Shown: piece by piece, positions 15,047-56,460 of the stretch | How positions within the stretch are numbered: the stretch's first letter is position 1 | Layout: each line of letters starts with the position of its first letter | NCBI GenBank assembly: GCA_050692175.1 | Contig: JBOGTG010000034.1 | Span: forward strand, 965 to 64,964 | Direction of reading: 5' to 3' | DNA: 64,000 bases | Origin: Candidatus Limnocylindria bacterium | Lineage (GTDB): Bacteria; Chloroflexota; Limnocylindria; P2-11E | Program-made: the position numbers and the translations under genes | The notes under the pieces: model-generated | Told to the model about the DNA's origin: nothing | Seen by the model: the letters and a program-made list of their open reading frames with translations, nothing else | Database searches by the model: none

Positions 15047-15065
15047 AGAACGTCTGTTCTAAACT
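15047..15065 (+). promoter_or_regulatory. LexA (SOS, Cheo-type) box abutting a -10-like hexamer, directly upstream of dnaB paralog 1
   Basis: Palindrome AGAACGTCTGTTCT at 15047..15060 (GAAC-N4-GTTC). TAAACT at 15060..15065. ATG at 15076. Confidence 0.5.
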
Positions 15066-15075
15066 GGCGGATCTC

Positions 15076-16404
15076 ATGACCCTCGAGACACGCGCACCCG
15101 ATCGTCAGGTCCCCTTCGATGAGGCGGCCGAGCAGCAGGTCATCGGAAGCCTGCTCATCGATCGCGACGCGATCTTCAAGGTCGCCGACCTCCTGCGAGT
15201 CGACGATTTCTACGTTCCGCGACATCAGCGGATCTACGACGCGGCGCAGGCGCTGCTCGAGCGGCGAGAGCGGATCGATCCGCTCACCATCCAGATGGAG
15301 CTCGCGCGACGTGAGGAGCTCGATCGGGCGGGGGGTCAGGCCTACCTGCGCACGCTCGCGGAGGGCGTCCCGACCGCGGCAGAGATCGAGCGCTACGGCC
15401 GGATCGTTCGCGACCGCGCCATCCTGCGGCGCCTTTTGGGCGCCGCCACTTCGATCGCCGCCGACGCGTACGACGAGCCGACGGATATCCCGCTCGCGCT
15501 CGACCGCGCCGAGCAGCGTCTCTTCGCGCTTCGCGACGAGTCGGCGAACGCGCAGCTCCGCCACATCACCGCTTCGCTACAGGCGAACTACGAGCACCTC
15601 ACGGACCGCATGGAGCGTCCGTTCGAGGTGAGCGGGATCCCGTCCGGCTTCCGGGAGGTCGACTACTACACCGAAGGGTTCACCGTCGGGGATCTGATCG
15701 TCCTCGCCGCGCGGCCTTCCGTGGGGAAGACGAGCCTCGCGCTCGGGATGAGCTTCAACGTCGCGCGGCGTGGCCACCCCGTGTTGCTCTTCTCGCTCGA
15801 GATGGATGCCAAGCAGATCGTCTCCCGCTACCTGGCGCTGAACTCACGCATGGACCTCCTCGCGCTCCGAACCGGCAACATCATCGACACGGAGGCCGCG
15901 GCTGCGCTGCACGGCCTCCCGGTGTTCATCGACGACACGCCGGGCATCTCGATCATGGAGCTCCGGACGAAGGCCCGCCGCGCCAGCACGCACGAAAAGA
16001 TCGAAGTGATCATCGTCGACTACGTCCAGCTCATCCGCACCGGCGAGGATGACGAGAATCGCGTACAAGAGATCGCGACGATCACGCGGAATCTGAAGTC
16101 GCTGGCGCGCGAGCTTGGCGTCGTCGTGATCGGACTCTCGCAGCTGTCCCGCGCCGCGGGCGACGCCGGCGGAGAGCCGAAGCTGTCGACACTTCGTGAA
16201 GGCGGTAGCTTGGAGCAAGATGCCGACATCGTGATCATGCTGTGGCGCGACCGCGAGGAGACGCCGGCCGGCGCGCCGCGGCTCATCAACGGCGCCGTAG
16301 CGAAGAACCGCAACGGCCCGACCGGCGGATTCCAGCTTCTCTTCGAAAGCGAGCAGGCGAAGTTCTTCTCGAAGGCCTCCGACGACAGCGGGCCGCCGGC
16401 ATGA
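15076..16404 (+). CDS. dnaB: Replicative DNA helicase DnaB family, paralog 1 (less canonical)
   Basis: 442 aa. N-terminal domain AEQQVIGSLLID...; Walker A ARPSVGKTS; FSLEMD; Walker B IIVDYVQLI; SQLSR...LREGGSLEQDAD; KNRNGPTG. Confidence 0.9.
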   Translation: MTLETRAPDRQVPFDEAAEQQVIGSLLIDRDAIFKVADLLRVDDFYVPRHQRIYDAAQALLERRERIDPLTIQMELARREELDRAGGQAYLRTLAEGVPTAAEIERYGRIVRDRAILRRLLGAATSIAADAYDEPTDIPLALDRAEQRLFALRDESANAQLRHITASLQANYEHLTDRMERPFEVSGIPSGFREVDYYTEGFTVGDLIVLAARPSVGKTSLALGMSFNVARRGHPVLLFSLEMDAKQIVSRYLALNSRMDLLALRTGNIIDTEAAAALHGLPVFIDDTPGISIMELRTKARRASTHEKIEVIIVDYVQLIRTGEDDENRVQEIATITRNLKSLARELGVVVIGLSQLSRAAGDAGGEPKLSTLREGGSLEQDADIVIMLWRDREETPAGAPRLINGAVAKNRNGPTGGFQLLFESEQAKFFSKASDDSGPPA

Positions 16405-17729
16405 CTTTGCAAACCGACCGCGGCGTCAAGCCACCGCCGGAGAAACCCGAGGCCGAGGCTTCGCTCCTCGGGGCGATGCTCATGGACGGCGCGCTCTACA
16501 ACGAGGTCGCGCGCGGGCGCCTGGGACCAGCCGACCTATCGCGCGCGCAGCATCGCATCGTGCTCGCGGCGATCGCGCGCGTTGCGGAGCGCAGCGAGCG
16601 GGTCGGATTCGCGACCGTGCAGTCGGACCTCGTGGCGCACGACGAGATCGAGGCGATCGGCGGAGCTCAGTTCCTCGTCGGCCTGATGCAGAACGTGCCT
16701 ACGGTTGCGCACGCCTCGAGTTACGCGACGATCGTCGAGCGCACCGCCCTCCTTCGTCGCCTCATCGGGGTCGCGAACGAGATCGCGCGCCTCGCGCTCA
16801 CCCGCGAAGACTCGGCCGCCGCGGTGACGGACGCGCAGGAGCTTCTCTTCGCAGTAAGCGAATCGACCCTCCATCGCGACATCGTTCCGCTCGATGTTGC
16901 GCTCCGCCGTTATGCGGAGCAGGTCGACGCGCGCGGCGATCTTCGCGTTGGCATTCGCACCGGGATAGAGTCACTCGACAAGAAGACCGGTGGCCTCCAG
17001 CCTTCTGACCTGATCCTCATCGCGGGCCGTCCCGGCCTTGGCAAGACGAGCCTCGCCCTCAACGTCGTCGAGCACGCCGCTGTCGTGCAACACAAGACCT
17101 GCGCCTTCTTTTCGATGGAGATGAGCGAGATGCAGGTCGTCCAGCGTCTTGTCTCGATGCTCGCCGAGATCGACGGCAATCGAATGCGCCGCGGCCGCCT
17201 CTCCACGCAGGAGTTCACCGCGATCTCCGCCGCGTCGAGCGAGCTGCAGCAGGCGCCGATCTTCGTCGAGGAGTCGAGCCGCCTCAATGTGACCGATATC
17301 CTCGCGAAGTCGCGACGTCTTCAGGCCGAGCGTGGCCTCGACCTCGTTGTGATCGACTACCTGCAGCTCATCGAAGGCAACGATAACGAGGAGAGCCGGG
17401 TTCTCGAGGTCGCCCGCATCAGCCGCGCGCTCAAAGCGATCGCGCGCGAGCTCGAGGTCCCGGTGGTCGCGCTCTCGCAGCTCTCGCGGCAGATCGAGCA
17501 GCGCGGCACCGAGCCGATGCTTTCAGATCTTCGCGAATCGGGCGCCCTCGAGGCCGACGCCGATCTGGTCATGTTCCTTTGGCAGAAGGACCGCAAGGAT
17601 CGCGAGGAGGGTGTGGTCCGCCTCAAGCTCGCGAAACATCGCAACGGACCGACGGGCGATTTCGACCTGCACTTCCAGTCCGACCTCACGCGGTTCCGCG
17701 ATCTTGGCGAGACGCGCGATGGCGCCTAA
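16401..17729 (+). CDS. dnaB: Replicative DNA helicase DnaB family, paralog 2 (more canonical)
   Basis: 442 aa from ATG 16401, which overlaps the paralog 1 stop (ATGA). Contains AEASLLGAMLMD, GRPGLGKTS, FSMEMS, VVIDYLQLI, SQLSRQIEQRGTEPMLSDLRESGALEADAD and KHRNGPTG. Confidence 0.9.
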   Translation: MTLQTDRGVKPPPEKPEAEASLLGAMLMDGALYNEVARGRLGPADLSRAQHRIVLAAIARVAERSERVGFATVQSDLVAHDEIEAIGGAQFLVGLMQNVPTVAHASSYATIVERTALLRRLIGVANEIARLALTREDSAAAVTDAQELLFAVSESTLHRDIVPLDVALRRYAEQVDARGDLRVGIRTGIESLDKKTGGLQPSDLILIAGRPGLGKTSLALNVVEHAAVVQHKTCAFFSMEMSEMQVVQRLVSMLAEIDGNRMRRGRLSTQEFTAISAASSELQQAPIFVEESSRLNVTDILAKSRRLQAERGLDLVVIDYLQLIEGNDNEESRVLEVARISRALKAIARELEVPVVALSQLSRQIEQRGTEPMLSDLRESGALEADADLVMFLWQKDRKDREEGVVRLKLAKHRNGPTGDFDLHFQSDLTRFRDLGETRDGA

Positions 17730-18172
17730 GCCGGCTCGATCGCGACTGTCACGTTCGCGCGCACATCGGAGAGCAGGCGCACCTCGACCTTGTGGACCCC
17801 GAGTGAGCGCAGGGGCTCAAGCAGGACGATCTTCGTCTTGTCGATCTCGGCCTTCGCTTCTTTCTTTAGAGCCTCGGCTACCTCCTTCGCCGTGACGCTC
17901 CCGAAAGTCTTGCCCTGCTCCCCCGCCTTCAGCCGGAACACGAGCGTGACCTCGCCGAGGCGCTTCGCGAGCTCCTGGGCGTCCTCGTGCGCGCGATCTT
18001 TCTTCGTCTTCTCGGCCTGCCGTTCCTGCGCGAGGTGTTTGAGCTCGCTGCCGGTCGCCTCGATGGCGAGGCCCTTCGGGAGCAGGTAGTTAAGCGCATA
18101 GCCATCGGCGACGTCCTTGATCTCACCGGTCCGACCGAGGCCGCGGACTTCGGCCTTGAGGATGACGCGCAC
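17726..18172 (-). CDS. rplI: 50S ribosomal protein L9
   Basis: 148 aa: MRVILKAEVRGLGRTGEIKDVADGYALNYLLPKGLA... Convergent with dnaB paralog 2; the two stop codons overlap. Confidence 0.93.
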   Translation of the reverse strand: MRVILKAEVRGLGRTGEIKDVADGYALNYLLPKGLAIEATGSELKHLAQERQAEKTKKDRAHEDAQELAKRLGEVTLVFRLKAGEQGKTFGSVTAKEVAEALKKEAKAEIDKTKIVLLEPLRSLGVHKVEVRLLSDVRANVTVAIEPA

Positions 18173-18178: not shown

Positions 18179-18358
18179 CTAGGAGGAGGTGGACGCCTCG
18201 TCGAGCGCCGTGTCCTGCTCGCTGCGCCGCAGCTCCATTTCCCAGGCGAGCACCGACGCCGCGACGGCCAGGACCCCCATGACAGTGAGAGCGCCGACGA
18301 TCGCGAGCAGTGCCTCGATGACACCGAAGAAGCCGGGACCGGAGTCGCGGTCGCTCAT
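18179..18358 (-). CDS. Hypothetical 59-aa single-pass membrane protein (below the ORF-track length cutoff)
   Basis: Own translation: MSDRDSGPGFFGVIEALLAIVGALTVMGVLAVAASVLAWEMELRRSEQDTALDEASTSS. GC-rich third positions. Its ATG overlaps the stop of the upstream DUF1232 gene (ATGA at 18355..18358). Confidence 0.45.
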   Translation of the reverse strand: MSDRDSGPGFFGVIEALLAIVGALTVMGVLAVAASVLAWEMELRRSEQDTALDEASTSS

Positions 18359-19574: not shown

Positions 19575-19604
19575 TTGACAACTGAACATCCGTTCGGTTA
19601 ACCT
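19575..19604 (+). promoter_or_regulatory. Putative lexA promoter with an embedded LexA/SOS box
   Basis: TTGACA at 19575..19580 and TAACCT at 19599..19604 (18-nt spacer). A perfect GAACATCCGTTC lies at 19584..19595 between them. The GTG start is at 19615. Confidence 0.6.
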
Positions 19605-19614: not shown

Positions 19615-20226
19615 GTGACAAAGCAAGACCAGCAGCGGGCGGACCGGATTCTTGCGTTCATCCGCGAGGCTGTCGCCGAACGGGGCTATCCCCCGAGCGT
19701 CCGCGAGATCGCGGAAGCGGTGGGGCTCGCTTCGACGTCCGCGGTCCACCACCACCTGACCAAGCTCGAGAAGGACGGCCGGCTAAACAAGGAAGCCACC
19801 CGGTCGCGAGCGCTCAGCCTCCCGGGTATGACCGGCGGTCGCGTCGTGCAGGCCCCCGTCATTGGCGAGATCGCCGCCGGTCAGCCGATCCACGCCTACG
19901 AGGAACGCTCTGAGACCATTGGCCTGCCGAGCGAGCTCGCTGCCGGCCGCGGACGAGAGACGTTCGTCCTACGCGTTCGGGGTAAGTCGATGATCGACGA
20001 CCATATCGACGACGGCGACTTCGTCGTGGTGCAGGAGCAGAACACCGCGCGCGATGGGGACATCGTCGTCGCCGTACTCGAGGACAATGTCGCAACGCTG
20101 AAGCGCTTCTACAAAGAGAAGGACCGCATCCGTCTGCAGCCGGCGAACGGGGCGATGTCACCCATCTACGCCCGGGACGTGCAGATCCAAGGGAAGGTCA
20201 TCGGCGTAATCCGCAAGCTGTCCTAG
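19615..20226 (+). CDS. lexA: LexA repressor
   Basis: 203 aa. Winged-helix N-terminus (GYPPSVREIAEAVGLASTSAVHHHL) and S24 peptidase C-terminus (RVRGKSMID...VVAVL). Confidence 0.93.
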   Translation: MTKQDQQRADRILAFIREAVAERGYPPSVREIAEAVGLASTSAVHHHLTKLEKDGRLNKEATRSRALSLPGMTGGRVVQAPVIGEIAAGQPIHAYEERSETIGLPSELAAGRGRETFVLRVRGKSMIDDHIDDGDFVVVQEQNTARDGDIVVAVLEDNVATLKRFYKEKDRIRLQPANGAMSPIYARDVQIQGKVIGVIRKLS

Positions 20227-20238: not shown

Positions 20239-21357
20239 ATGCCCACACGCGCACCTTCACTCACCGTTCGTGAGCTGAACCGCGCGCTCCTGGCGCGCCA
20301 GTTCCTGCTGAGGCGCCAGAAGCTGGGTGCGGTGGACGCCGTGGAGCGCCTCGCCTGCCTGCAGGGCCAGTGGGCACCTTCGCCCTACGCCGCGCTGTGG
20401 TCGCGGGTCTTGGGATTCGAGCGCGAGCAGCTCACTCGACCGATCGACCGCGGCGAGATCGTCAAGGCGACGCTGATGCGCGCGACCCTGCACCTCGTGT
20501 CCGCACGCGAGTACCCCGCGTACTCGCTCGCGACGATGGAGGGCCGGTTCGGAGCGTGGCGACCGCCCGGGGGGCCGGCACTCGCCGATCTCGACAAGCT
20601 CCACCGTTCGGTCATGACGTTCGCCGGAAAGACTCCGCGCACCCGCGGCGAGATCCAGGAGTTCATCGCCGGCCATCTGCCGCCGAGCGCGGCGAAGGAC
20701 GAGCGCCTCCGCAGCTGGTTCAGTTGGGCCGCCGTCGCAGCGAGCGGGCTCGTTTGGGAGGCCGCCGGAGCGCATTTCGAGCATCGGCAGCTCGGCAGAC
20801 ACATCGCTCCGCCGGCCAAACTGCGGAAGACGCCGAAGCCCGAGGCCGCGTACGAGGTGGTCGTGCGCCGTCATCTGGGCGCGTTCGGCCCGGCGAGCGT
20901 GGCCGACATCGCGACCTGGAGCAGTGTCCGCGTGCCGAATATCCGCGCGGCGCTCGCGCGGATAAAGGATCTGCGGCGCTTCACCGACGAGCGCGGGCGC
21001 GAGCTCATCGACCTATCGCGCGCCCCGCGCCCCTCCGAGGAGGTCACAGCACCGGCCCGTTTTCTCGCGCGGTTCGACGCCGCGATCCTCGGCCACGCGG
21101 CGCCGGAGCGCACGCGCATCCTGCCCGAGGCGTTCCGCAAGCAGGTCATCTTCTCCGCCGAGGTGTGGCCGACCTTTCTCGTCGACGGTTTTGTGGCCGG
21201 ACGCTGGACGATCGCCGTGCGGCCGAAGGAGGCGGTGCTCGAGCTCAAGCCCTTCAAGCCGCTCGCCCGCGCCGATCGGGCCGCGCTCGTCGAGGAGGGT
21301 GAAGCGCTCGTGCGCTTCTACGCCCCCGAATCCAGGATCCACGGTGTGCGCGGGTGA
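20239..21357 (+). CDS. Winged-helix YcaQ/AlkZ-family (HTH_42) DNA glycosylase-like protein, paralog 1
   Basis: 372 aa: LTVRELNRALLARQFLLRR...ERLACLQGQWAPSPYAALWSR...ATLHLVSAREY. This family signature was recognised by eye. Confidence 0.75.
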   Translation: MPTRAPSLTVRELNRALLARQFLLRRQKLGAVDAVERLACLQGQWAPSPYAALWSRVLGFEREQLTRPIDRGEIVKATLMRATLHLVSAREYPAYSLATMEGRFGAWRPPGGPALADLDKLHRSVMTFAGKTPRTRGEIQEFIAGHLPPSAAKDERLRSWFSWAAVAASGLVWEAAGAHFEHRQLGRHIAPPAKLRKTPKPEAAYEVVVRRHLGAFGPASVADIATWSSVRVPNIRAALARIKDLRRFTDERGRELIDLSRAPRPSEEVTAPARFLARFDAAILGHAAPERTRILPEAFRKQVIFSAEVWPTFLVDGFVAGRWTIAVRPKEAVLELKPFKPLARADRAALVEEGEALVRFYAPESRIHGVRG

Positions 21358-22484
21358 CGAAGGGCAGCGACGAGCGGCGCGTGCTCACGCTTCGCGAGCT
21401 CAACCGCGCGATGCTGGCGCGCCAGCTCCTTCTGCAACGGGCACGTATCGGCGTGGTTCCGGCGATCGAGCGACTCGCCGCGCTCCAGGCCCAGTGGGCG
21501 CCGTCGCCGTACATCGCGCTCTGGTCGCGCCTCGAAGGCTTTCGCCGCGAGAAGCTCTGGTCGGCGATCGAGCGCCGTCAGGTGATTCGCGCGCGGCTGA
21601 TGCGCGGCACGCTTCATCTTGTCTCCGCGCGGGACTTCTACGCCTACGCGGTCGCGACACAGGATCTCCAGCGTGGGGCGTGGAATCGCCTCCAGATCGG
21701 CCGCGGAGTGGATCCGAGCAAGGTCGCCGCCCTCGCGATCGCGTTCGCGCGCAAACCTCGTCCGAAGGAGGAAGTGCTCGAGCACATCCAGGCCCGGATC
21801 GGCGGAAGGCTCGGCGGTCCGTTCAATTGGCTCGTATGGCGCTTCGTGAGCGCGCATGCCGACCTCGTGACCGCGCCGCCCGGCGGGCACTGGCAATACG
21901 GCGGGACCGATGCGCCGTACGTCGCGGCGCGGCACTGGATCGCGCGCGGGGAGCGGCCATCCGAGGACGACGCGCTCGAGGTCCTAACCCGGCGGTACCT
22001 AGCTGCGTTCGGGCCGGCGACCCTCGCAGACATCGCCAGATTCGCGGGGCAAGTCCCGCCCCGTGTTCGTCCGGCACTCGAGCGGATCGCTTCGAAGCTC
22101 CGGACGTTCAGCGACGAGGAAGGACGCCTGCTCTACGACCTCCCGCGCGCTCCACGCCCGGGCGGTGACGTCGGGGCACCGGTCCGCCTTCTTCCGCGAT
22201 ACGACGAGCTCCTCATCAGCTACCAACACCGTGATCGGGTGATCGCGCCGGCGCATCGGCGCGCGGTCTACACGAAGAACGCGATCGTCGAGGCCGTGGT
22301 CATGGTCGATGGATTCGCGGCCGCCACCTGGAGCCTCGACCGTGCGAAGAACGACGCCGTGATCGAAGTCGCGCCGTTCGCGCGCCTCGCGCGGAGGGAC
22401 CGCGCCGCCATCGAGGCGGAGGGTCAGGGCCTCCTTTCCTTCCTCGCGCCGGACGCAAAGGCCGTCGGGGTGCGGTTCGGATGA
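21354..22484 (+). CDS. Winged-helix YcaQ/AlkZ-family (HTH_42) DNA glycosylase-like protein, paralog 2
   Basis: 376 aa. The GTG start overlaps the paralog 1 stop (GTGA). Sequence: LTLRELNRAMLARQLLLQR...ERLAALQAQWAPSPYIALWSR...GTLHLVSARDF. Confidence 0.75.
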   Translation: MTKGSDERRVLTLRELNRAMLARQLLLQRARIGVVPAIERLAALQAQWAPSPYIALWSRLEGFRREKLWSAIERRQVIRARLMRGTLHLVSARDFYAYAVATQDLQRGAWNRLQIGRGVDPSKVAALAIAFARKPRPKEEVLEHIQARIGGRLGGPFNWLVWRFVSAHADLVTAPPGGHWQYGGTDAPYVAARHWIARGERPSEDDALEVLTRRYLAAFGPATLADIARFAGQVPPRVRPALERIASKLRTFSDEEGRLLYDLPRAPRPGGDVGAPVRLLPRYDELLISYQHRDRVIAPAHRRAVYTKNAIVEAVVMVDGFAAATWSLDRAKNDAVIEVAPFARLARRDRAAIEAEGQGLLSFLAPDAKAVGVRFG

Positions 22485-23686
22485 CGCGCGCGATCATGCA
22501 CTGCGACCTGGACGCGTTTTACGCGTCCGTCGAGCAGCGCGACCATCCCGAGTACCGCGGAAGGCCCGTGATCGTCGGCGGCGACGGCCCGAACGAGCGA
22601 GGAGTCGTGATGGCGGCCTCGTACGAAGCGCGTGCCTTCGGTGTCCGCTCGGCCATGCCGCTCGCGATTGCCGGACGGCTCTGCCCGAGCGGCATCTACG
22701 TGCCGGGCAACTTCGATCGTTACGAGGAGGCGTCCGACGCGGTCATGGCGATCTTCGACGAGCAGACGCCCCTCGTCGAGCCCATCTCGCTCGACGAGGC
22801 ATTCCTCGACGTGACCGCAACCGAGCACCTGTTCGGCGGGGCCATGGCGATGGCCGGCCAGATCAAGCGCGCGGTGCGCGAGCGCTGCGGGCTGGTCGTC
22901 TCAGTCGGGGTCGCGACGAACAAGCTGTGCGCCAAGGTGGGTTCCGATCTGCGCAAGCCGGACGGCCTCGTCATCGTGGCGGCCGGCGGCGAGGCCGCGT
23001 TCCTGGCGCCGCTCCCGCTCGAGCGCCTCTGGGGCGTCGGGCCGCGGACGCGGGAGGTGCTCGCCGGCTGGGGCCTGCGGACCATCGGTCAGCTCGCAGC
23101 GTTCGATCGCGCGGTGCTCGAAATCCGCCTGGGCGAGCACGGTGCGGACATCTGGGAGCGTGCGAACGGAATCGACGACAGTGAGGTCATAAGCGAGCAC
23201 GTACCGAAGTCGGTGGGTCACTCGCATACCTTCGGCGAGAACACGCTCGACCCCGCGACGATTGAATCGACGCTGCTTCGGCTTTCGGAGGGCGTCGGCC
23301 GGCGATTGCGGGATCACACGCTGCGCGGTCGGACGATCACCATGACGCTCCGCGTCGCTCCGTTCGAGACCCGAACGCGGCAGCGCACCCTTCGCGAGCC
23401 AACCGACGATGACGTCACGATCTTCCGCATCGCGCGACAGCTTCTTCGCGATGCGCTGGCAGAGGACCGCGAAGGCGGCCGTACCAGTCCGGTCAGGCTC
23501 GTCGGCGTTTCGGTCTCCGGAGTGAGCGCCGGTGCGCAGCTCGGCTTATTCGATGCCGCCCGCCACGGGCGGCTCAACGCTGCGTTAGACGCCGTTCGCG
23601 CTCGTTTCGGCGACAAGGCGCTCGACCGCGCGAGTGCACGCGAGGTACGAGAGCGTCGTCGTTTCAGCGGACACCGGTCGCGATGA
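22481..23686 (+). CDS. dinB: DNA polymerase IV (Y-family) DinB
   Basis: 401 aa: MHCDLDAFYASVEQRD, SLDEAFLDVT, VGVATNKLCAK. The ATG overlaps the upstream stop. Confidence 0.93.
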   Translation: MTRAIMHCDLDAFYASVEQRDHPEYRGRPVIVGGDGPNERGVVMAASYEARAFGVRSAMPLAIAGRLCPSGIYVPGNFDRYEEASDAVMAIFDEQTPLVEPISLDEAFLDVTATEHLFGGAMAMAGQIKRAVRERCGLVVSVGVATNKLCAKVGSDLRKPDGLVIVAAGGEAAFLAPLPLERLWGVGPRTREVLAGWGLRTIGQLAAFDRAVLEIRLGEHGADIWERANGIDDSEVISEHVPKSVGHSHTFGENTLDPATIESTLLRLSEGVGRRLRDHTLRGRTITMTLRVAPFETRTRQRTLREPTDDDVTIFRIARQLLRDALAEDREGGRTSPVRLVGVSVSGVSAGAQLGLFDAARHGRLNAALDAVRARFGDKALDRASAREVRERRRFSGHRSR

Positions 23687-29331: not shown

Positions 29332-29589
29332 TCAGCTCGCTCGCTTTAGCGTGCGACGCTCGGTGGCGCGGACGACCTCGTGCTCGAAACGCTCGAGGAA
29401 CAGCTGCCCGCCGCAGCGGGGACAGAGCGGCTGATCGCCCTCGTTCCAGACGGGCGCCTCGCGACCGCGAACGTTGTCGTAGGCGGTGCGAAGCTGCTCG
29501 ACGGTCGGCCGGCGCGCGCTCGTGGGCACGAGCACCTCGCCCAGGCCGTGGCCGCAGAAATAGCAATAGAGCTCAGCTCGAAGGGCCAT
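29332..29589 (-). CDS. Hypothetical zinc-ribbon protein
   Basis: 85 aa from MALRAELYCYFCGHG...CPRCGG. GGAGG lies 10 nt upstream of the ATG. Confidence 0.55.
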   Translation of the reverse strand: MALRAELYCYFCGHGLGEVLVPTSARRPTVEQLRTAYDNVRGREAPVWNEGDQPLCPRCGGQLFLERFEHEVVRATERRTLKRAS

Positions 29590-29700
29590 TAATCGCGAAC
29601 CTCCACGCGGAAACGACAAAGACCGATCCTTTGTTCCATATACGTTCGATCGGCCGATCCGGTTTCCGTATCCCTAGATACGCTCCGGCGGGCGTGGAGG
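29590..29700 (-). promoter_or_regulatory. Structured 5' leader that can sequester the Shine-Dalgarno sequence of the zinc-ribbon gene
   Basis: On the mRNA strand, CCUCCACGC (29700..29692) can pair with GCGUGGAGG (29608..29600), which contains the SD. Nested helices are CGUAUC/GAUACG, CGGAAAC/GUUUCCG and ACAAAG/CUUUGU, plus the palindrome GATCGGCCGATC. Confidence 0.35.
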
Positions 29701-33566: not shown

Positions 33567-33964
33567 GCTGGCTGCGCGTGTTCGCGTCAGTCGTCGCGAG
33601 CGCGATCGGACTGGCCTTCTGGTGGGCCCTGACCGAGCCACTCCCCGTCCCGCCGGTGATCCTGCTTGGCGTGGCGGGGGCGATCCTGTTCTGTGCCGGA
33701 GTCATTGCCGGGAACGGCGGCGCCATCGCTGCGCCGGTCGCGTTCCTGTTCTCGCTCTTCGTCGGAAGCATCATCGCGACGCAGCTTCATCAGGCATTCC
33801 GCCCTCAGAGCGCGCCGGTCGAGGAGTTCAACGGACTGATCTCGCTCCACTTTCCCGAGGTGCTGACGCCCCTCGCCGTCGCGATCGTGATCGGCGCCGT
33901 GGCGGGGTGGCTGGGCGAGAGGTTGCTGCCGTCACGGACGAGGGTCGACCCGCCGCGGCGCTAG
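33563..33964 (+). CDS. Hypothetical membrane protein
   Basis: 133 aa, hydrophobic. Its start overlaps the upstream stop (GTGA). Confidence 0.5.
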   Translation: MSWLRVFASVVASAIGLAFWWALTEPLPVPPVILLGVAGAILFCAGVIAGNGGAIAAPVAFLFSLFVGSIIATQLHQAFRPQSAPVEEFNGLISLHFPEVLTPLAVAIVIGAVAGWLGERLLPSRTRVDPPRR

Positions 33965-35409
33965 CGGACGAGCGGCTGCGCGGCGGCGAGAGCCCATTCG
34001 TATATCGAATTCGGGAGTATCCCGAACAGGACTACGGCGAACGACGCGATGCCAAGACTGACCGAGAGCGTGCGCTCGGAGACAAGGCCCGGCAGCTTCT
34101 CCTCGACGTCGTACATGTACATATGGACGACGACCCGCAGGTAGTAGAAGGCGGCAAGCACGGCGTTCAGCGCAATGACGACCGCGAGCCAAGCGAGGCC
34201 CGCGTCGAGAACGGGCTGGATCACCACGAACTTGGCGACGAAGCCGATGGTCGGCGGGATCCCGGTGAGCGAGATGAGAAAGATCGCGAACGCGAGCGCA
34301 CCGAACGGCTGCCTGCGTCCGAACCCATTCAGCTCCGCGAGCGACGCACCGCGCGTGCCCTCGAGGTCGAAGTACAGGAGGCATGCGAAGGCGCCGAGAT
34401 TCATGACCCCGTACGCGAACAGGTAGAAGAGCACCGCCGCGGTGGCACTGGGCCCTGCGCTTGCCGCGGCGACCGCCGCGAGGATGTAGCCGGTGTGGGC
34501 GATGCTCGAGTAGGCGAGCATCCGCTTCGTATTCGTCTGCGCCAGCGCGACGATGTTCCCACCGGTCATCGTGGCCGTCGCGAGGATCGCGAGGACGGCG
34601 CTCCAGTCGACGCTGAGCGGACCAAGCGCTCCGATGAGGACGCGAAGGATCGCTGCGAACGCGGCGGCTTTCGGGGCGACCGACATGAACGCCGTCGCGG
34701 GAGTTGCCGCGCCGTCGTAGGCATCAGGCGTCCACTGATGGAAGGGGACTATCGCCGCCTTGAAGCCGAGACCGACCGTGATGAGGGCGAGCGCGACGAT
34801 GGTCGGACCGTTCGCGATGCCCTGCGCGGCGAGGAAGTTCGCGATCGTGACGAAGTCGGTGGCCTTCGTGACTCCATACAGCCATGCGAGTCCGTACAGG
34901 AGCAGCGCCGAGCTGAACGCGCCGAGGAGGAAGTACTTGAGGGCAGCCTCGTTTGCGAAGCGATCGGTGCGCTGGATCCCCGCGAGGACGTATATCGGGA
35001 TGGTCATGGTCTCGAGCCCGATGAAGAGCGTGATGAGGTCGGCCGAGAGCGCGATGGTCATCGCGCCGACGGTCGAGAAGCAGATGACCGCGTAGTACTC
35101 GCCCGCGGGGACGCCGCGACGCGTCAGGTACGCGGGCGACACGGCTGCCGCGAAGATCGCGAGAATGATGAAGACGGCGCGGAAGAATGATGTGAACGCG
35201 TCGATCGTCACGAACCCGCGGAAGTACTGGGCTGCCGGGACCACGTTGAAGACCGACGCGAGCGCCACGACGAGCCCGGCGATCGTGATGATTGGCAGCG
35301 CGAGCGCCGCTCGACGGCGGTCGAGGAGCGCGTCGGCGACCAGCACGATCAGGGCGACCGCGGTCACGATGATCTCGGGATAGACAGCGACGAGATCGGC
35401 TTCAGTCAC
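33961..35409 (-). CDS. nuoN: NADH-quinone oxidoreductase subunit N
   Basis: 482 aa polytopic antiporter-like subunit. It is last in the nuo order and overlaps nuoM by 4 nt. Confidence 0.9.
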   Translation of the reverse strand: MTEADLVAVYPEIIVTAVALIVLVADALLDRRRAALALPIITIAGLVVALASVFNVVPAAQYFRGFVTIDAFTSFFRAVFIILAIFAAAVSPAYLTRRGVPAGEYYAVICFSTVGAMTIALSADLITLFIGLETMTIPIYVLAGIQRTDRFANEAALKYFLLGAFSSALLLYGLAWLYGVTKATDFVTIANFLAAQGIANGPTIVALALITVGLGFKAAIVPFHQWTPDAYDGAATPATAFMSVAPKAAAFAAILRVLIGALGPLSVDWSAVLAILATATMTGGNIVALAQTNTKRMLAYSSIAHTGYILAAVAAASAGPSATAAVLFYLFAYGVMNLGAFACLLYFDLEGTRGASLAELNGFGRRQPFGALAFAIFLISLTGIPPTIGFVAKFVVIQPVLDAGLAWLAVVIALNAVLAAFYYLRVVVHMYMYDVEEKLPGLVSERTLSVSLGIASFAVVLFGILPNSIYEWALAAAQPLVR

Positions 35410-36935
35410 TTAAAGGCCACCACCATGAACGACGGGTCCGTGGCGAGGCGGATGACCCGCTCGAGGGAAGGCTCGATGTATGCGATGAAGGGCTGCGGCA
35501 GGACCCCGAACAGCACCGTGAGGAGCAGGAGTGGCAACGCGCAGGCCACCTCCAGGCGTGACAGATCGGGCAACGCCCGATACGCCTCGCGCACCGGTCC
35601 GTACATGACGCGCTGGAACATCCAGAGCAGGTAGACGGCGGCGAGGATCACGCCGATCGCGGCGAGCGGGCCCCAGAAAAGGCCGCCGAGCGGCGCCGCG
35701 CCCGAGAAGGCAAACGTCCCAAGAAGGACCAGGAACTCGCCGACGAAACCGCTGAGGCCCGGTAACCCGAGCGACGCCAGCACGAACACGCCGAAGAACG
35801 TCGTGAAGACCGGCCACATGTTCGCGAGACCGCCGAGGTCCGCGATCATGCGCCGATGTGTCTTCTCGTATTGGATGCCGACAAGAAGGAAGAGCGCGCC
35901 CGTGACGAAGCCGTGGTTGACCATTTGCAGCACCGCGCCGACTCCGCCTTGGACGTTGAGCACGAAGATGCCCAGGGTCACGAAGCCCATGTGCGCCACC
36001 GACGAGTAGGCAACGAGTTTTTTCAGGTCCTTCTGCACCGCGGAGACGATCGCTCCGTAGAGGATGGCGACGACCGAGAGGAAAATCAGGACCGGTAGCC
36101 AGGCCTGAACCCCGACCGGGAAGAGCGGCAGCCCGAAGCGGAGGAAGCCGTAGCCGCCCGCCTTCAGGAGAACCCCGGCGAGAACGATCGAGCCGGCCGT
36201 CGGCGCCTCGACGTGCGCGTCCGGGAGCCAGGTGTGGAACGGGATCATCGGCATCTTGATCGCGAAGGCGAGAGCGAAGGCCAGGAATACCCAGAACTGG
36301 AAGTCCGCCGGAAAACGCGTTCGCAGCTCGATGAGCTCCGGAAGCGACAGGGTCCGAGAGCCGCTTGGATCGGCCGACTGGATGTAGACGGCGACGATGC
36401 CGACGAGCATGAGGAGCGAGCCGGCGAGCGTGAAGAGCACGAACTTGAGCGTGGAGTAGATCCGCCGCGGGCCGCCCCAAATGCCGATGATGAGGTACAT
36501 CGGCACGAGCATCAGCTCGAAGAAGATGTAGAAGAGGAAAAGGTCGAGCGCGATGAAGACGCCGACCATTCCGACCTCGAGGAGGAGGAACGCGGTCATG
36601 TACTCGACGATCCGGGTCTTGATCGCGCCGCCGCTCGAATACAGGACCGCGACGAATGTGAGCAGCGTCGTCATCGGCACCAGAAGAACGGAGATGCCGT
36701 CGACTCCGACGAGGTAGCTGATGCCGAGGCTCGGGAGCCACTCGACGTTCTCGACCAGCTGGAAGCCGGGTTCCCCCACAACGAATTGCGTGAGCATCCA
36801 GAGCGACGCCAGGAGCTCGACGAAGGTCGTTGTGATCGCCACCTGCTTTGCGGCGCGCTCGTCGCGGCGAAAGAGGAAGAGCGGGACCAGACCCGCGAGC
36901 GGGATCACCACGAGCAGCGAGAGCACGTTGGTCAT
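35406..36935 (-). CDS. nuoM: NADH-quinone oxidoreductase subunit M
   Basis: 509 aa from MTNVLSLLVVIPL. The ATG overlaps the nuoL stop. Contains the HTWLPDAHVEAPT motif. Confidence 0.92.
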   Translation of the reverse strand: MTNVLSLLVVIPLAGLVPLFLFRRDERAAKQVAITTTFVELLASLWMLTQFVVGEPGFQLVENVEWLPSLGISYLVGVDGISVLLVPMTTLLTFVAVLYSSGGAIKTRIVEYMTAFLLLEVGMVGVFIALDLFLFYIFFELMLVPMYLIIGIWGGPRRIYSTLKFVLFTLAGSLLMLVGIVAVYIQSADPSGSRTLSLPELIELRTRFPADFQFWVFLAFALAFAIKMPMIPFHTWLPDAHVEAPTAGSIVLAGVLLKAGGYGFLRFGLPLFPVGVQAWLPVLIFLSVVAILYGAIVSAVQKDLKKLVAYSSVAHMGFVTLGIFVLNVQGGVGAVLQMVNHGFVTGALFLLVGIQYEKTHRRMIADLGGLANMWPVFTTFFGVFVLASLGLPGLSGFVGEFLVLLGTFAFSGAAPLGGLFWGPLAAIGVILAAVYLLWMFQRVMYGPVREAYRALPDLSRLEVACALPLLLLTVLFGVLPQPFIAYIEPSLERVIRLATDPSFMVVAFK

Positions 36936-38836: not shown

Positions 38837-38840
38837 CTCG

Positions 38841-39152
38841 TCATCCCTTCATCTGATGGATCTCGTCGACGTTGACCTCTGGCCGGTTGCGATACGCCGA
38901 GAGGATGATCGCGAGGCCGACCGCGACCTCGGCCGCGGCGATGACGAACACGAAGACCACGAAGACGCTGCCCCGCTCGTCGATCGATCCGTACTTCCGC
39001 GAGAAGGCGACGAGCGCGAGGTTCGCCGCATTGAGCATGAGCTCGACGCACATCAGGATGACGACTGCATTACGCCTAGTGAGTACGCCGGCACAGCCGA
39101 TGAAGAACAGCACCGCGGACACCGCGACGTACGCCCCGAGCGGGACGGTCAT
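38841..39152 (-). CDS. nuoK: NADH-quinone oxidoreductase subunit K
   Basis: 103 aa. Contains LMCVELMLNAANL...AAAEVAVGLAI. Confidence 0.93.
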   Translation of the reverse strand: MTVPLGAYVAVSAVLFFIGCAGVLTRRNAVVILMCVELMLNAANLALVAFSRKYGSIDERGSVFVVFVFVIAAAEVAVGLAIILSAYRNRPEVNVDEIHQMKG

Positions 39153-39676
39153 CGGCGGCGCCTCATCGCGGCCTCTTCCGGGTCGTCGCGCCTCGTCAGC
39201 ACGATCGCGCCGACCATAGCCGCGAGCAGCAACACCGACGCGATCTCGAACGGGAACGCGAAGTCGGTGAAGAGGCTCGTGGCGAGCGCCGGCAGGTCGC
39301 TGCCCCCCGGCCTGGGCGGCGCGCTCGTGAACGTGAACGCGAAGAGGGCCACGGGGATCGCGACCGCGGCGACGAGCACCGCCGCGAGCGGCGTCTGCCG
39401 CTGGAAGAAGAGCGCGCGCGGGCGATCGCTGAACTTCGTGAACATGACGCCGTAGAGGATCAGCACCGTGATCGCACCGACGTAGATGAGCACCTGGAAA
39501 GCCGCGATCGTCTCCGCGCCGAGCAATACGAACATCCCGGCCATGCAGAGGAACGTGAAGGCCATGAGCAGGGCGGCCGCCGTGATCCGATTGAGCAGCA
39601 CGACCGCCGCGCCGCCAGCGATCACGCCGATCGACAGAAGGGCGAAGAGGACCGGCTCGACGAAGTCGAACGTCAC
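39149..39676 (-). CDS. nuoJ: NADH-quinone oxidoreductase subunit J
   Basis: 175 aa from GTG 39676, preceded by GAGG. Contains FQVLIYVGAITVL. The longer track ORF would overlap nuoH. Confidence 0.85.
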   Translation of the reverse strand: MTFDFVEPVLFALLSIGVIAGGAAVVLLNRITAAALLMAFTFLCMAGMFVLLGAETIAAFQVLIYVGAITVLILYGVMFTKFSDRPRALFFQRQTPLAAVLVAAVAIPVALFAFTFTSAPPRPGGSDLPALATSLFTDFAFPFEIASVLLLAAMVGAIVLTRRDDPEEAAMRRRR

Positions 39677-39683
39677 CTCGTCG

Positions 39684-40835: not shown

Positions 40836-40840
40836 CGCTA

Positions 40841-40982
40841 CCGTCGCTCAATCTCGGGCTTCGCCCGAGAGGCGCTCACGTTCCTATCCACCTCGATCTC
40901 GGGCTTCGCCCGAGACACGCTCAGGGCTGATCGTGCTCGGTCCTCGCCGCAAAGCGACTCGTCGCTCATGTTCTTATCCACC
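40841..40982 (-). repeat. Intergenic hairpin-bearing repeats at the nuoC/nuoH junction: hairpin-only copy B2 and full copy B1, flanked by 13-nt direct repeats
   Basis: B2 spans 40841..40879 (hairpin 40853..40869). B1 spans 40893..40969 (hairpin 40898..40914, CTCGGGC-TTC-GCCCGAG). Direct repeats gttcctatccacc (40880..40892) and gttcttatccacc (40970..40982) duplicate the nuoC 3' end. Confidence 0.6.
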
Positions 40983-41462: not shown

Positions 41463-41818
41463 TTGAGAGCGTCCTTCTTCCACGCGTAGTAGAGGCCAAC
41501 GACGAGGATGCCGATGAAGACAATCACCTCGACCAGACCGACGACCCCGAGCGAGCGGAAGAGCACCGCCCAGGGGAAAAGGAAGATCACTTCGACGTCG
41601 AACACGACGAAGAGCAACGCGAATATGTAGAAGTGCGTCGGATATCGGCCCCACGCCTGGCCGATCGGCTCCTCTCCCGACTCGTAGGTGCGGAGCTTTT
41701 CTTTCGTCGCCTTGCGCGGAGCGACGAGGCGAGCGAGCGTCAGCAGGATAGTTACGAAGATCGCCCCGACCACGAAGAACGCAAAGACGTAAACGTACGA
41801 AAGGCTGTAGTCGGGCAC
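41453..41818 (-). CDS. nuoA: NADH-quinone oxidoreductase subunit A
   Basis: 121 aa. Contains YESGEEPIG...FDVEVIFLFPWA. Confidence 0.9.
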   Translation of the reverse strand: MPDYSLSYVYVFAFFVVGAIFVTILLTLARLVAPRKATKEKLRTYESGEEPIGQAWGRYPTHFYIFALLFVVFDVEVIFLFPWAVLFRSLGVVGLVEVIVFIGILVVGLYYAWKKDALNWY

Positions 41819-54784: not shown

Positions 54785-54822
54785 TCTGTGACCTTCGCCA
54801 TTGTCGGGGAGGTCGTCGCATC

Positions 54823-56454: not shown

Positions 56455-56460
56455 CGACCG

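What the first reader, a model, noticed from the sequence alone, without database searches (positions are those of the whole stretch)
15076..17729. Two full-length dnaB paralogs in tandem, translationally coupled
Both ORFs are 442 aa and each has the complete DnaB architecture.
- N-terminal domain present in both.
- Walker A: ARPSVGKTS versus GRPGLGKTS.
- Walker B: IIVDYVQLI versus VVIDYLQLI.
- SQLSR block present in both; LREGGSLEQDAD versus LRESGALEADAD; NRNGPTG block versus HRNGPTG.

The stop of the first overlaps the start of the second (ATGA at 16401..16404). By eye they are only about one-third identical, so this is an old pair rather than a recent duplication.

Paralog 1 has a shortened segment after RTGNI and an unusual SRAAGDAGGEPK stretch. 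Paralog 2 is closer to textbook DnaB.

rplI, which commonly sits just upstream of dnaB in the same direction, is here convergent, and its stop overlaps the paralog 2 stop (17726..17729). No phage or plasmid genes are adjacent.

Coupled expression suggests either a hetero-oligomeric replicative helicase or a DnaB-derived partner (loader or regulator). I do not know of a characterised precedent.
Basis: partly seen in the sequence, partly recalled or inferred. Interest (0 to 1): 0.7.

Follow-up and report, generated by a model that had tools for sequence, protein, structure and literature searches.

The report
Conserved coupled pair of DnaB helicases
A soil Chloroflexota lineage carries two old, divergent, intact copies of the replicative DNA helicase gene dnaB, fused into one SOS-controlled operon in every relative examined, which suggests a two-subunit replicative helicase, something not described in bacteria.

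Summary
Both ORFs (15076..16404 and 16401..17729) encode 442 aa and overlap in ATGA. They are 35% identical, and both pass the curated DnaB equivalog model with all catalytic motifs intact.

The pair is not an assembly oddity. In 45 loci from class Candidatus Limnocylindria, paralog 2 follows paralog 1 wherever the contig continues, usually with the same 4-nt overlap. The pair also occurs in a lineage only about 54% identical. Both genes are under strong purifying selection (dN/dS 0.03-0.15). The locus is a stable housekeeping one (purA ... rplI, lexA). Neither protein resembles phage or plasmid DnaB beyond the generic 40%.

The sister order Limnocylindrales has one canonical dnaB in the same neighbourhood. 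Relative to it, each paralog has fixed a different set of losses at near-universal DnaB positions. Paralog 1 lacks 6 residues of the docking helix (DH) that binds the neighbouring subunit and all known loaders.

A new point: a perfect LexA box sits 16 nt before paralog 1 and is conserved in 44 of 44 loci with upstream sequence.

The best reading is an obligate hetero-oligomeric, SOS-inducible replicative helicase. This is inferred and not shown. I could not test whether a third dnaB or a loader gene lies elsewhere in the genome.

The parts
15047..15060 (.). LexA (SOS) operator: perfect palindrome AGAACGTCTGTTCT, 16 nt upstream of the p1 ATG
   Evidence: It is one of only two exact GAAC-N4-GTTC matches in the 64 kb window; the other lies at the lexA promoter. 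An exact box lies 20-48 nt upstream of p1 in 44 of 44 orthologous loci that have upstream sequence, while the flanking intergenic sequence varies. Of 73 exact boxes in 476,578 nt of related loci, 44 are at p1, 28 at lexA and 1 elsewhere.
15059..15064 (+). Candidate -10 element (TAAACT) overlapping the LexA box, 11 nt before the ATG; implies a leaderless or very short-leader mRNA (inferred)
   Evidence: Orthologs show TAGACT, TATACT or TAGAAT at the same place, 7-11 nt before the ATG/GTG. Some have TTGACA upstream. The strict sigma-70 consensus scan found nothing in the window.
15076..16404 (+). dnaB paralog 1 (p1), 442 aa
   Evidence: TIGR00665 426.9 bits (cutoff 385.25), with PF00772 and PF03796. 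Orthologs of 67-98% identity occur in 45 Limnocylindria loci. dN/dS is 0.03-0.15. The AF2 model has pLDDT 90.3 and matches DnaB chains with TM up to 0.80.
15877..15912 (+). Remnant of the determinant/docking helix (DH) in p1 (residues 268-279, NIIDTEAAAALH); 6 residues are missing, including the conserved aromatic (Trp in E. coli and V. cholerae)
   Evidence: Shown by alignment to Geobacillus DnaB and to 176 other DnaBs. The deletion is conserved in all p1 orthologs and in the distant p1-like P0126. The AF2 model has only a 7-residue helix (272-278) here. The role of DH is described in PMC9912922.
16153..16182 (+). p1-specific Gly/Ala-rich segment AAGDAGGEPK between motifs H3 and H4; it replaces the near-universal xVExR...(R/K)P
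   Evidence: It is conserved across p1 orthologs. E368G and D379T (Geobacillus numbering) depart from residues that are 95-97% conserved in other DnaBs.
16401..16404 (+). ATGA stop/start overlap (translational coupling of p2 to p1)
   Evidence: Seen. The same geometry occurs in 30 of 41 orthologous loci. In the remaining 11 the nominal gap between the genes is 0-9 nt.
16401..17729 (+). dnaB paralog 2 (p2), 442 aa
   Evidence: TIGR00665 441.5 bits, with PF00772 and PF03796. Orthologs of 69-94% identity lie immediately downstream of p1 in every locus whose contig continues. dN/dS is 0.05-0.11.
17726..18172 (-). rplI (ribosomal protein L9), convergent, with a 4-nt overlap of the p2 stop
   Evidence: ORF; Pfam L9 N and C domains. 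In all 36 loci where it was found, rplI lies on the minus strand downstream of p2. It is directly adjacent in 15 and 0.2-2.7 kb away in the other 21.
19584..19595 (.). LexA box at the lexA promoter (GAACATCCGTTC), 20 nt before the lexA GTG; it identifies the motif as this organism's SOS operator
   Evidence: The box is conserved at the same relative place in 28 related loci.
19615..20226 (+). lexA
   Evidence: PF01726 and PF00717.

Best explanation
The two genes are an ancient duplicate of the lineage's own chromosomal dnaB. I propose they now function as two mutually dependent subunits of one replicative helicase.

Shown:
- Both genes are intact DnaB.
- They are co-oriented and joined by a 4-nt stop/start overlap.
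- They are conserved as a unit, under strong purifying selection, in a stable housekeeping locus.
- The sister order has one canonical dnaB in the same neighbourhood.
- Each paralog has fixed a different set of departures from near-universal DnaB residues.
- A LexA box is conserved in the promoter region.

Inferred mechanism:
- One short-leader or leaderless mRNA starts just downstream of a -10 element that overlaps the LexA operator. Transcription is therefore partly repressed by LexA and rises after DNA damage.
- p1 is translated from the 5' end. p2 is translated by termination-reinitiation at ATGA, which gives near-equal amounts of the two proteins.
- The two proteins co-assemble into a mixed hexamer, most simply alternating A3B3. 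This fits the trimer-of-dimers architecture of DnaB, in which two protomer conformations alternate around the ring.
- All six ATP sites keep their P-loop, catalytic Glu, Walker B Asp and Arg finger.
- Only the three p2 subunits offer a full-length docking helix (DH). The ring would therefore have three canonical and three altered linker-helix/docking-helix (LH-DH) joints. These joints hold the ring together and are the site where DnaC, lambda P and DciA bind.
- The altered joints may act as predetermined gates for ring opening or limit loader binding to three sites.
For: Identity and integrity:
- Both pass the curated DnaB equivalog cutoff and have both DnaB domains.
- Walker A Lys, catalytic Glu (FSLEM/FSMEM), Walker B Asp, SQLSR, RE(S/G)G and the K-x-R-N-G-P Arg finger are present. 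They are invariant or nearly so in 44 p1 and 39 p2 sequences (the window copy plus its orthologs).

Conservation as a unit:
- In 41 of 45 Limnocylindria loci p2 follows p1. The other four contigs end at or within about 300 nt after p1.
- The same 4-nt overlap is present in 30 of the 41.
- A lineage only 53-57% identical also has the pair (L081 and L082).
- 34 of 34 non-Limnocylindria dnaB loci have a single copy.

Selection and co-variation:
- dN/dS is 0.03-0.15 for both.
- 33% of p1 columns and 36% of p2 columns are invariant.
- The distance matrices of p1 and p2 correlate better than any other pair among six neighbouring genes: r 0.98, partial r 0.69. This is weak evidence.

Chromosomal, resident origin:
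- Synteny purA..epimerase | p1 p2 | rplI DUF1232 MscS | lexA AlkZ holds in all loci.
- The window is housekeeping throughout.
- The best phage and plasmid matches are 41% identity or less.
- Both clades nest among Chloroflexota DnaBs.
- Both share a rare Glu-Pro before LSDLRE with the single-copy Limnocylindrales DnaB. This is found in only 5 of about 146 other DnaBs.
- The single-copy canonical DnaB (P0125, CSP1-4) sits in the same rplI-DUF1232-lexA-dinB neighbourhood.

Complementary degeneration (Geobacillus numbering):
- p1 has fixed S243D, L308A, P356V, E368G, D379T and the 6-residue DH deletion.
- p2 has fixed F43L/Y44S, D291E/D292E, R302L, Q388A and R398Q.
- P0125 is canonical at all of these positions. 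Most changes are shared by the distant clade members.

Structure:
- DH is the neighbour-docking and loader-binding helix (PMC9912922).
- The AF2 model of p1 (pLDDT 90.3) shows a 7-residue helix there.
- Solved DnaB hexamers show two alternating conformers. The p1 model scores TM 0.74-0.80 against chains B/D/F/H/J/L of 4esv and 0.53-0.61 against A/C/E/G/I/K.

Regulation: the LexA box results.
Against: - There is no direct evidence of physical interaction. No multimer prediction or biochemistry was possible.
- Because both paralogs keep every catalytic motif, each could in principle form its own homohexamer.
- The NJ tree does not recover p1 and p2 as exclusive sisters (0 of 100 bootstraps). A single duplication within the class rests on shared synteny and the Glu-Pro signature, not on a resolved phylogeny.
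- I could not scan whole genomes, so a third dnaB and the loader repertoire (dciA, dnaC/dnaI) remain unknown.
- The mirror-tree signal is only modestly above that of p1-rplI (partial r 0.61).
- The structural consequences of the individual substitutions were not mapped onto coordinates.
Confidence: 0.5

Rival explanations
1. The two proteins form separate homohexamers, or one is a DnaB-derived accessory, with divided labour. For example, p2 would be the fork helicase. p1, with its truncated docking helix and remodelled channel loop, would act as a loader, ring-opener, regulator or restart helicase. They would be co-expressed only because both are needed at the same time.
For: Each protein keeps a complete set of ATPase and DNA-binding motifs, so each could be self-sufficient. 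The p1 changes are concentrated in the loader/neighbour docking helix and in the loop before motif H4. No dciA, dnaC or dnaI was seen in the window, which leaves room for an unconventional loading factor.
Against: Tight 4-nt coupling is kept over long divergence. Both copies, not one, have lost near-universal residues in a complementary way. Rates of change are equal and tightly correlated. These features are more typical of subunits of one complex. An accessory factor would not be expected to keep the Arg finger, catalytic Glu and DNA-binding RE(S/G)G under such strict constraint.
Confidence: 0.25
2. The pair is an additional, damage-inducible DnaB system. It would belong to the SOS regulon and serve replication restart or repair. 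An unseen canonical dnaB elsewhere in the genome would carry out normal replication.
For: A perfectly conserved LexA operator lies in front of the operon. A large family of canonical P0125-type DnaB exists within the same class. Whole genomes could not be searched.
Against: The P0125-type gene of Limnocylindrales and CSP1-4 lies in the same rplI-DUF1232-lexA-dinB neighbourhood as the pair. No third copy lies within 6 kb of the pair in 45 loci or anywhere in the 64-kb window. This pattern points to replacement rather than addition. An SOS box at the sole, essential dnaB has a precedent in M. tuberculosis (PMC3381160 and PMC8151990). In Limnocylindrales the single dnaB also sits directly downstream of LexA-box-controlled genes.
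Confidence: 0.15
3. One or both copies come from a degraded prophage, plasmid or genomic island, or the pair is an assembly artefact or a recent duplication.
For: Extra DnaB copies in bacteria usually come from mobile elements. A phage contig carrying a P0125-like DnaB exists (L087).
Against: Scores are far below the cutoffs of the phage and island DnaB models: TIGR03600 333/326 against 498.65, and NF040583 310/305 against 655. The best phage and plasmid identities are 41% or less. The housekeeping synteny is stable and no mobile-element genes were found. The pair is present in 41 independent assemblies. The 35% identity rules out a recent duplication.
Confidence: 0.03

Closest known systems
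Canonical homohexameric DnaB (E. coli, Geobacillus stearothermophilus, Vibrio cholerae; TIGR00665)
   Same: The domain architecture (NTD, linker helix, RecA-like CTD) and all catalytic and DNA-binding motifs are the same. The proteins are 36-41% identical to solved DnaBs, and the p1 model superposes with TM up to 0.80. The chromosomal location next to rplI is also shared.
   Different: Here there are two paralogs instead of one gene, translationally coupled. p1 lacks 6 residues of the docking helix, including the conserved Trp position. p2 has lost the NTD DFY motif and several near-universal CTD residues. rplI is convergent rather than upstream.
Single-copy DnaB of the sister order Candidatus Limnocylindrales, including Chloroflexi bacterium CSP1-4 (P0125, P0383)
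   Same: It belongs to the same class and sits in the same rplI-DUF1232-lexA-dinB neighbourhood. It shares the rare Glu-Pro before LSDLRE and lies close to LexA-box-controlled genes.
   Different: It is one gene. It is canonical at every position where p1 or p2 departs. It is about equally distant from p1 and p2 (Kimura distances 0.91 and 0.88).
Mycobacterium tuberculosis dnaB
   Same: It is an essential replicative helicase whose promoter carries a GAAC-N4-GTTC-type SOS-box motif and which is induced by DNA damage (PMC3381160 and PMC8151990). It also hosts inteins (titles and abstracts listed).
   Different: It is a single gene forming a homohexamer. LexA binding at its promoter was weak or not confirmed in ChIP.
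Heteromeric ring ATPases that arose by duplication of a homomeric ring subunit (eukaryotic MCM2-7). A functional analogy only, cited from general knowledge.
   Same: The proposed logic is the same: duplicated ring subunits co-assemble, accumulate complementary changes and become mutually dependent.
   Different: MCM is an AAA+ 3'-5' helicase, unrelated in sequence to the RecA-fold DnaB. Here there are only two paralogs, and hetero-assembly is inferred and not shown.
Extra DnaB copies of phages, plasmids and SPI-7-type islands (TIGR03600, NF040583)
   Same: They belong to the DnaB family, and more than one copy can occur per genome.
   Different: Neither paralog reaches those models' cutoffs. 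There is no mobile-element context. The pair is inherited vertically with the locus.

Membership tests
DnaB replicative helicase (TIGR00665 equivalog; PF00772 + PF03796) | Score above the curated equivalog cutoff, with both the N-terminal and C-terminal DnaB domains | tested here: met
   p1 scores 426.9 bits and p2 441.5 bits against a cutoff of 385.25. PF00772 and PF03796 are found in both.
DnaB replicative helicase | Walker A GKT/S, catalytic Glu (motif H1a), Walker B Asp (H2), SQLSR (H3), RESG/EQDAD (H4) and Arg finger K-x-R-N-G-P | tested here: met
   All are present in both proteins when aligned to Geobacillus DnaB. They are conserved across 44 p1 and 39 p2 sequences, the window copy plus its orthologs. 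Deviations: p1 has REGG and S243D; p2 has EADAD (Q388A).
DnaB replicative helicase | Linker helix plus full-length determinant/docking helix (the LH-DH module) with a conserved aromatic residue | tested here: not met
   Not met for p1: it has a 6-residue deletion that removes the aromatic position, and only a 7-residue helix in the AF2 model. Met for p2: its helix is full length, with Phe or Leu at the Trp position. The linker helix is present in both.
DnaB replicative helicase | DnaB fold | tested here: met
   The p1 AF2 model (pLDDT 90.3, pTM 0.77) gives top Foldseek hits that are all DnaB, with TM up to 0.80.
DnaB replicative helicase | Hexamer formation, 5'-3' helicase activity, essentiality, and status as the sole replicative helicase of the genome | not testable with these tools
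   This needs biochemistry, genetics and whole-genome gene content.
Phage or genomic-island DnaB (TIGR03600 phage_DnaB; NF040583 SPI-7-type) | Score above the model cutoff and a mobile-element context | tested here: not met
   TIGR03600 scores are 332.5 and 325.7 against 498.65. NF040583 scores are 310.1 and 305.1 against 655. There are no phage or plasmid genes in the window. The best phage and plasmid identity is 41% or less.
LexA (SOS) regulon member, Gram-positive/Actinobacteria-type box GAAC-N4-GTTC | Operator in the promoter region, the same motif at lexA's own promoter, and conservation in orthologous promoters | tested here: met
   All 44 loci with upstream sequence have an exact box 20-48 nt upstream of p1. 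The motif is otherwise almost confined to the lexA promoter.
LexA (SOS) regulon member | LexA binding and damage induction | not testable with these tools
   This needs EMSA or ChIP and expression data.
Hetero-oligomeric ring helicase (works-like claim only) | Physical co-assembly of the two paralogs in one ring | not testable with these tools
   No multimer prediction was available. The indirect support is conserved coupling, complementary losses and correlated rates.

The most novel reading that the evidence does not exclude
The replicative helicase of this Limnocylindria subclade is an obligate A3B3 DnaB heterohexamer, which would be the first heteromeric replicative helicase in Bacteria. 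The two paralogs would be locked into the two alternating protomer conformations of the DnaB ring. Only three canonical LH-DH docking modules would remain. The three p1 joints, with their truncated docking helix, would act as built-in gates. Loading would then be loader-independent or restricted to three loader sites, and the whole assembly would be under SOS control.
Probability: 0.35. Interest if true: 0.85.

Novelty: new variant of a known kind. Interest (0 to 1): 0.7.

Why it matters
Bacterial replicative helicases are treated as homohexamers of one protein. Heteromeric rings are regarded as a hallmark of the eukaryotic MCM2-7 system.

A lineage-wide, translationally coupled DnaB pair with complementary fixed changes would be a natural experiment in several respects:
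- how a homomeric ring motor becomes heteromeric;
- which of the two alternating protomer conformations needs which residues;
- how many intact LH-DH modules and channel loops a DnaB ring needs for loading and translocation.

The helix truncated in p1 is exactly the site used by DnaC, lambda P and DciA. The pair therefore bears directly on the open question of how helicases are opened and loaded in the many bacteria that lack DnaC/DnaI. The conserved LexA operator adds a clear case of SOS control of a replicative helicase. Both proteins are small and soluble-type and should be easy to co-express, so the hypothesis can be tested directly.

Tried and rejected
- AF2 of p1 with a shallow alignment of close orthologs gave pLDDT 50.6 and was discarded. 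A diverse alignment was needed.
No multimer prediction was possible.
- The strict sigma-70 promoter scan found nothing around the operon. The promoter proposal therefore rests on conserved -10-like hexamers in orthologs.
- The neighbour-joining tree of 207 DnaBs with 100 bootstraps supports each clade at 100%. It does not resolve whether p1 and p2 are sisters (0%) or whether p2 groups with the single-copy Limnocylindrales DnaB (16%). Deep DnaB phylogeny is beyond this method.
- Five literature searches for DnaB paralogs, two dnaB genes, DnaB1/DnaB2 or a heterohexamer returned no precedent. What they found were phytoplasma mobile-unit copies, plasmid copies and B. subtilis allele names.
- I could not find an open paper confirming the LexA motif in Chloroflexi. 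That Dehalococcoides LexA uses a GAAC-N4-GTTC box is my recollection only. The identification here rests on the box at lexA's own promoter.
- A genome-wide search for a third dnaB, dciA or dnaC/dnaI was not possible. Pfam scans of 58 window ORFs found no DUF721/DciA and no IstB/DnaC-like ATPase. Together with the locus annotation this covers all but two weak candidate ORFs, 16910..17287 and 29332..29619.
- One Pfam call failed on wrong coordinates.
- The mirror-tree analysis is reported as weak support only.


Full report
**1. The observation**

The window encodes two 442-aa ORFs on the plus strand. I call them p1 (15076..16404) and p2 (16401..17729). The junction reads GCATGACT, so the two ORFs overlap by the four bases ATGA. 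The mechanical ORF list extends p2 to a GTG at 16242. The ATG at 16401 is the start that aligns with DnaB and with every ortholog.

- The proteins are 35% identical (E 1e-74).
- Both carry the DnaB N- and C-terminal Pfam domains.
- Both exceed the curated cutoff of NCBI's DnaB equivalog model TIGR00665: 426.9 and 441.5 bits against 385.25.
- rplI is convergent and overlaps the p2 stop by 4 nt.

One detail needs correcting. p2 has the more canonical C-terminal domain, but p1 has the more canonical N-terminal domain.

**2. Organism and distribution**

Close homologs are named Chloroflexi/Chloroflexota or Candidatus Limnocylindria bacterium. A scan of one genome per GTDB species with p1 returned 45 Limnocylindria loci with p1 orthologs of 67-97% identity (L002-L046). 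After that, identity drops to 41% or less in other phyla.

- In 41 of the 45 loci a p2 ortholog (69-94% identical) follows p1 immediately. In the other four the contig ends at or within about 300 nt after p1.
- The identities of the two paralogs decline in parallel.
- 30 of the 41 loci keep exactly the window's 4-nt overlap. The rest have a nominal gap of 0-9 nt between the genes.
- All 34 non-Limnocylindria dnaB loci fetched by the same scan have a single DnaB gene.

A profile search of 1.84 billion representative proteins found more distant members of each clade. P0126 is p1-like at 55% identity. P0129 and P0130 are p2-like at about 52%.

- On its contig, P0126 is followed by a p2-like gene with an 8-nt overlap (L081).
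- P0130 is preceded by a p1-like C-terminus and a 52-aa ORF, and is followed at a distance by a convergent rplI (L082).

The pair is therefore much older than the divergence of the 45 loci.

**3. Both genes are functional and chromosomal**

- Nei-Gojobori dN/dS against eight relatives is 0.03-0.15 for p1 and 0.05-0.11 for p2.
- 33% of p1 columns and 36% of p2 columns are invariant among 44 and 39 sequences (the window copy plus its orthologs). These include the Walker A Lys, the catalytic Glu, the Walker B Asp, SQLSR, the RE(S/G)G DNA-binding loop and the Arg finger (residue mapping from the alignments to Geobacillus DnaB).
- The locus is syntenic throughout: purA, DUF218, a zinc-finger protein and an epimerase on the minus strand; then p1 and p2; then 0-2.7 kb of variable sequence; then rplI, DUF1232 and MscS on the minus strand; then lexA and an AlkZ-like gene.
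- The rest of the window is housekeeping. It holds purine biosynthesis, dinB, the nuo operon, obg, nadD, rsfS, NHEJ genes, pyrG and comEC.
- Neither paralog reaches the phage or SPI-7-island DnaB models.
- tblastn against 50,697 phage and 72,556 plasmid records gives nothing above 41% identity.
- There is no third DnaB-like sequence in the window.

**4. Origin**

The nearest non-pair DnaB to both paralogs is P0125. Its Kimura distance is 0.91 to p1 and 0.88 to p2, while p1 and p2 are only 35% identical to each other. P0125 and a large family of relatives at least 76% identical to it are named Candidatus Limnocylindrales bacterium or Chloroflexi bacterium CSP1-4.

In those genomes dnaB is single and lies in the same gene neighbourhood:
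- rplI(-) DUF1232(-) lexA(+) dnaB(+) in L083;
- lexA(-) DUF1232(+) rplI(+) X dinB(+) 93-aa ORF dnaB(+) in CSP1-4.

In a neighbour-joining tree of 207 DnaBs:
- each extended clade has 100% bootstrap support;
- both sit among Chloroflexota sequences (Herpetosiphonaceae, Caldilineaceae);
- exclusive sisterhood of p1 and p2 is not recovered (0 of 100).

A rare character does unite p1, p2 and the P0125 group. All have Glu-Pro immediately before the LSDLRE motif. In 183 sequences where the motif could be read, other DnaBs have Arg/Lys/Val/Ile-Pro, and only 5 sequences outside these groups have Glu-Pro.

The simplest history is duplication of the resident dnaB in a Limnocylindria lineage outside Limnocylindrales, followed by fast divergence of both copies and then stasis. 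I regard this as likely but not proven.

**5. How the paralogs differ from ordinary DnaB**

I listed alignment columns where 176 other DnaBs agree at 75% or more but a paralog clade has fixed something else (Geobacillus numbering).

| Paralog | Fixed departures |
|---|---|
| p1 | S243D (next to the catalytic Glu), L308A, P356V, E368G, D379T, and a Gly/Ala-rich AAGDAGGEPK segment before motif H4 |
| p2 | F43L/Y44S (the N-terminal DFY motif becomes DLS), D291E/D292E (IDD becomes EE), R302L, Q388A, R398Q |

- The single-copy P0125 is canonical at every one of these positions.
- Most of the changes are shared by the distant clade members.
- The changes are complementary: neither paralog is simply the degenerate copy.

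The most interpretable change is the 6-residue deletion in p1 after LRTGNIIDT. It removes the middle of the determinant/docking helix (DH), including the position of the conserved Trp (W294 in E. coli, W291 in V. cholerae).

According to PMC9912922, DH pairs with the linker helix (LH) of the adjacent protomer to form the LH-DH module. That module fixes the relative orientation of neighbouring C-terminal domains. It is also the common binding site of DnaC, lambda P and DciA.

The deletion is present in all p1 orthologs and in P0126. A confident AF2 model of p1 (pLDDT 90.3, pTM 0.77) has only a 7-residue helix at that place.

The model otherwise matches solved DnaB structures. It fits alternate chains of the same hexamer well and the others poorly: TM 0.74-0.80 against 0.53-0.61 in 4esv. 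This shows the two alternating protomer conformations of the DnaB ring.

**6. Regulation (new)**

The sequence 16 nt upstream of the p1 ATG is a perfect palindrome, AGAACGTCTGTTCT (15047..15060). GAAC-N4-GTTC occurs only twice in the 64-kb window. The second copy is 20 nt before the lexA start codon. The count of two is not above chance (mean 1.07 in shuffles), but the placement is.

- In the orthologous loci an exact box lies 20-48 nt upstream of p1 in 44 of 44 cases that have upstream sequence, within otherwise variable intergenic DNA.
- Of 73 exact boxes in 476,578 nt of these loci, 44 are at p1, 28 at the lexA promoter and 1 elsewhere.
- The motif is of the type defined for M. tuberculosis and B. 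subtilis LexA, TCGAAC-N4-GTTCGA (PMC3381160).
- The box overlaps a -10-like hexamer (TAGACT or TAAACT) 7-11 nt before the start codon. This suggests a leaderless or very short-leader transcript. It would also explain the lack of a Shine-Dalgarno sequence and the reliance of p2 on coupling. This part is inference, and the strict promoter scan found nothing.

An SOS box at a sole, essential dnaB has a precedent in M. tuberculosis, where dnaB is damage-induced. The box therefore does not by itself imply a non-replicative role. In Limnocylindrales the single dnaB lies directly downstream of genes controlled by LexA boxes, either lexA itself or a 90-93-aa ORF.

**7. Interpretation**

Three lines of evidence are the pattern expected when a duplicated ring subunit becomes two interdependent subunits of one ring:
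- strict conservation of adjacency and stop/start coupling;
- equal and tightly correlated constraint (r 0.98 and partial r 0.69, the highest among 15 gene pairs in the locus; weak evidence);
- complementary fixed losses in both copies.

An alternating A3B3 ring would fit DnaB's trimer-of-dimers architecture. It would have six potentially active ATP sites but only three canonical LH-DH modules. I put this at about 0.5.

The main rivals are:
- two homo-oligomers or a DnaB-derived accessory factor (0.25);
- an additional SOS-inducible DnaB system alongside an unseen canonical dnaB (0.15).

A mobile-element origin, an artefact or a recent duplication is effectively excluded.

I could not test physical interaction, the presence of a third dnaB elsewhere in the genome, or the loader repertoire.

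**8. Novelty**

I found no description of a conserved chromosomal DnaB pair in five searches of the open literature for DnaB paralogs or pairs. Known extra DnaB copies belong to phages, plasmids or islands.

I classify this as a new variant of a known kind. The proteins are DnaB-family members (p1 fails one structural feature, the full docking helix). What is unusual is the organisation and the likely quaternary structure.

Noticed in passing
L020, L025, L038, L039, L041-L044 (p1 orthologs); L039, P0124, P0129 (p2 orthologs): Inteins interrupt motif H4 of both paralogs at the homologous site (LS[TD]LRE | C...HN | SGALE). The p1-borne inteins are 202-425 aa and 55-76% identical to each other, but only about 30% identical to p2-borne inteins. 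Each paralog therefore carries its own long-resident intein lineage. In L039 both genes are interrupted. Among the intein-free p1 alleles, the window and its closest relatives read REGGSLEQ, with no Ser at the +1 position. Other intein-free alleles keep RESG, so this possible homing-site immunity is not general.
   Followed up: partly
window 20239-23686: Directly downstream of lexA lie two tandem AlkZ-like DNA glycosylase paralogs (20239-21357 and 21354-22484, with a 4-nt overlap) and a dinB/IMS polymerase (22481-23686, also overlapping). This looks like a coupled damage-response operon after lexA, and it is a second tandem paralog pair in the same region.
   Followed up: partly
L083 6671 and 6706; L088 6539: In Limnocylindrales and CSP1-4, exact LexA boxes precede a conserved 90-93-aa ORF with no Pfam hit. 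In CSP1-4 this ORF sits 133 nt upstream of the single dnaB on the same strand. It may be an unannotated small SOS gene.
   Followed up: no
L087 (Logan SRR14194060 contig, 11.3 kb): A DnaB close to the Limnocylindrales type (P0127, which shares the Glu-Pro signature) sits between ParB-like, terminase-like and portal genes. It is probably a phage or prophage of this bacterial group carrying a host-like helicase.
   Followed up: no
L006, L007, L024, L037: Contigs carrying the pair at 74-96% identity to the window are deposited in MAGs labelled Candidatus Udaeobacter, Bathyarchaeia archaeon, Actinomycetota and Saccharimonadales. These are almost certainly mis-binned Limnocylindria contigs.
   Followed up: no
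P0123 (576 aa, representative library): This protein is p1-like for about 350 residues, including the DH deletion, and then switches to a different DnaB C-terminus with a long extension. It is either a chimeric assembly or a recombinant.
   Followed up: no
window 33961-41818: The strong positive AT skew (0.16-0.28) at 34-42 kb coincides with minus-strand nuo genes for membrane subunits of NADH dehydrogenase (nuoN/M/L/K/H/A-type Pfam hits). It is a codon-composition effect and not a foreign island.
   Followed up: yes
window 52394-58888: This is an NHEJ cluster: a full three-domain LigD (52394-54784, minus strand), Ku (56952-57794) and a second ATP-dependent ligase (57812-58888). A second DUF1232 gene (56461-56883) lies beside Ku.
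   Followed up: no
window 18179-18355 (minus strand); also L001, L082: A conserved 58-59-aa ORF with no Pfam hit lies between DUF1232 and rplI. It is called in several independent contigs, including the distant L082.
   Followed up: no
L082 494-652: In one distant lineage a 52-aa ORF is inserted between the p1-like and p2-like genes, which breaks the direct overlap.
   Followed up: no
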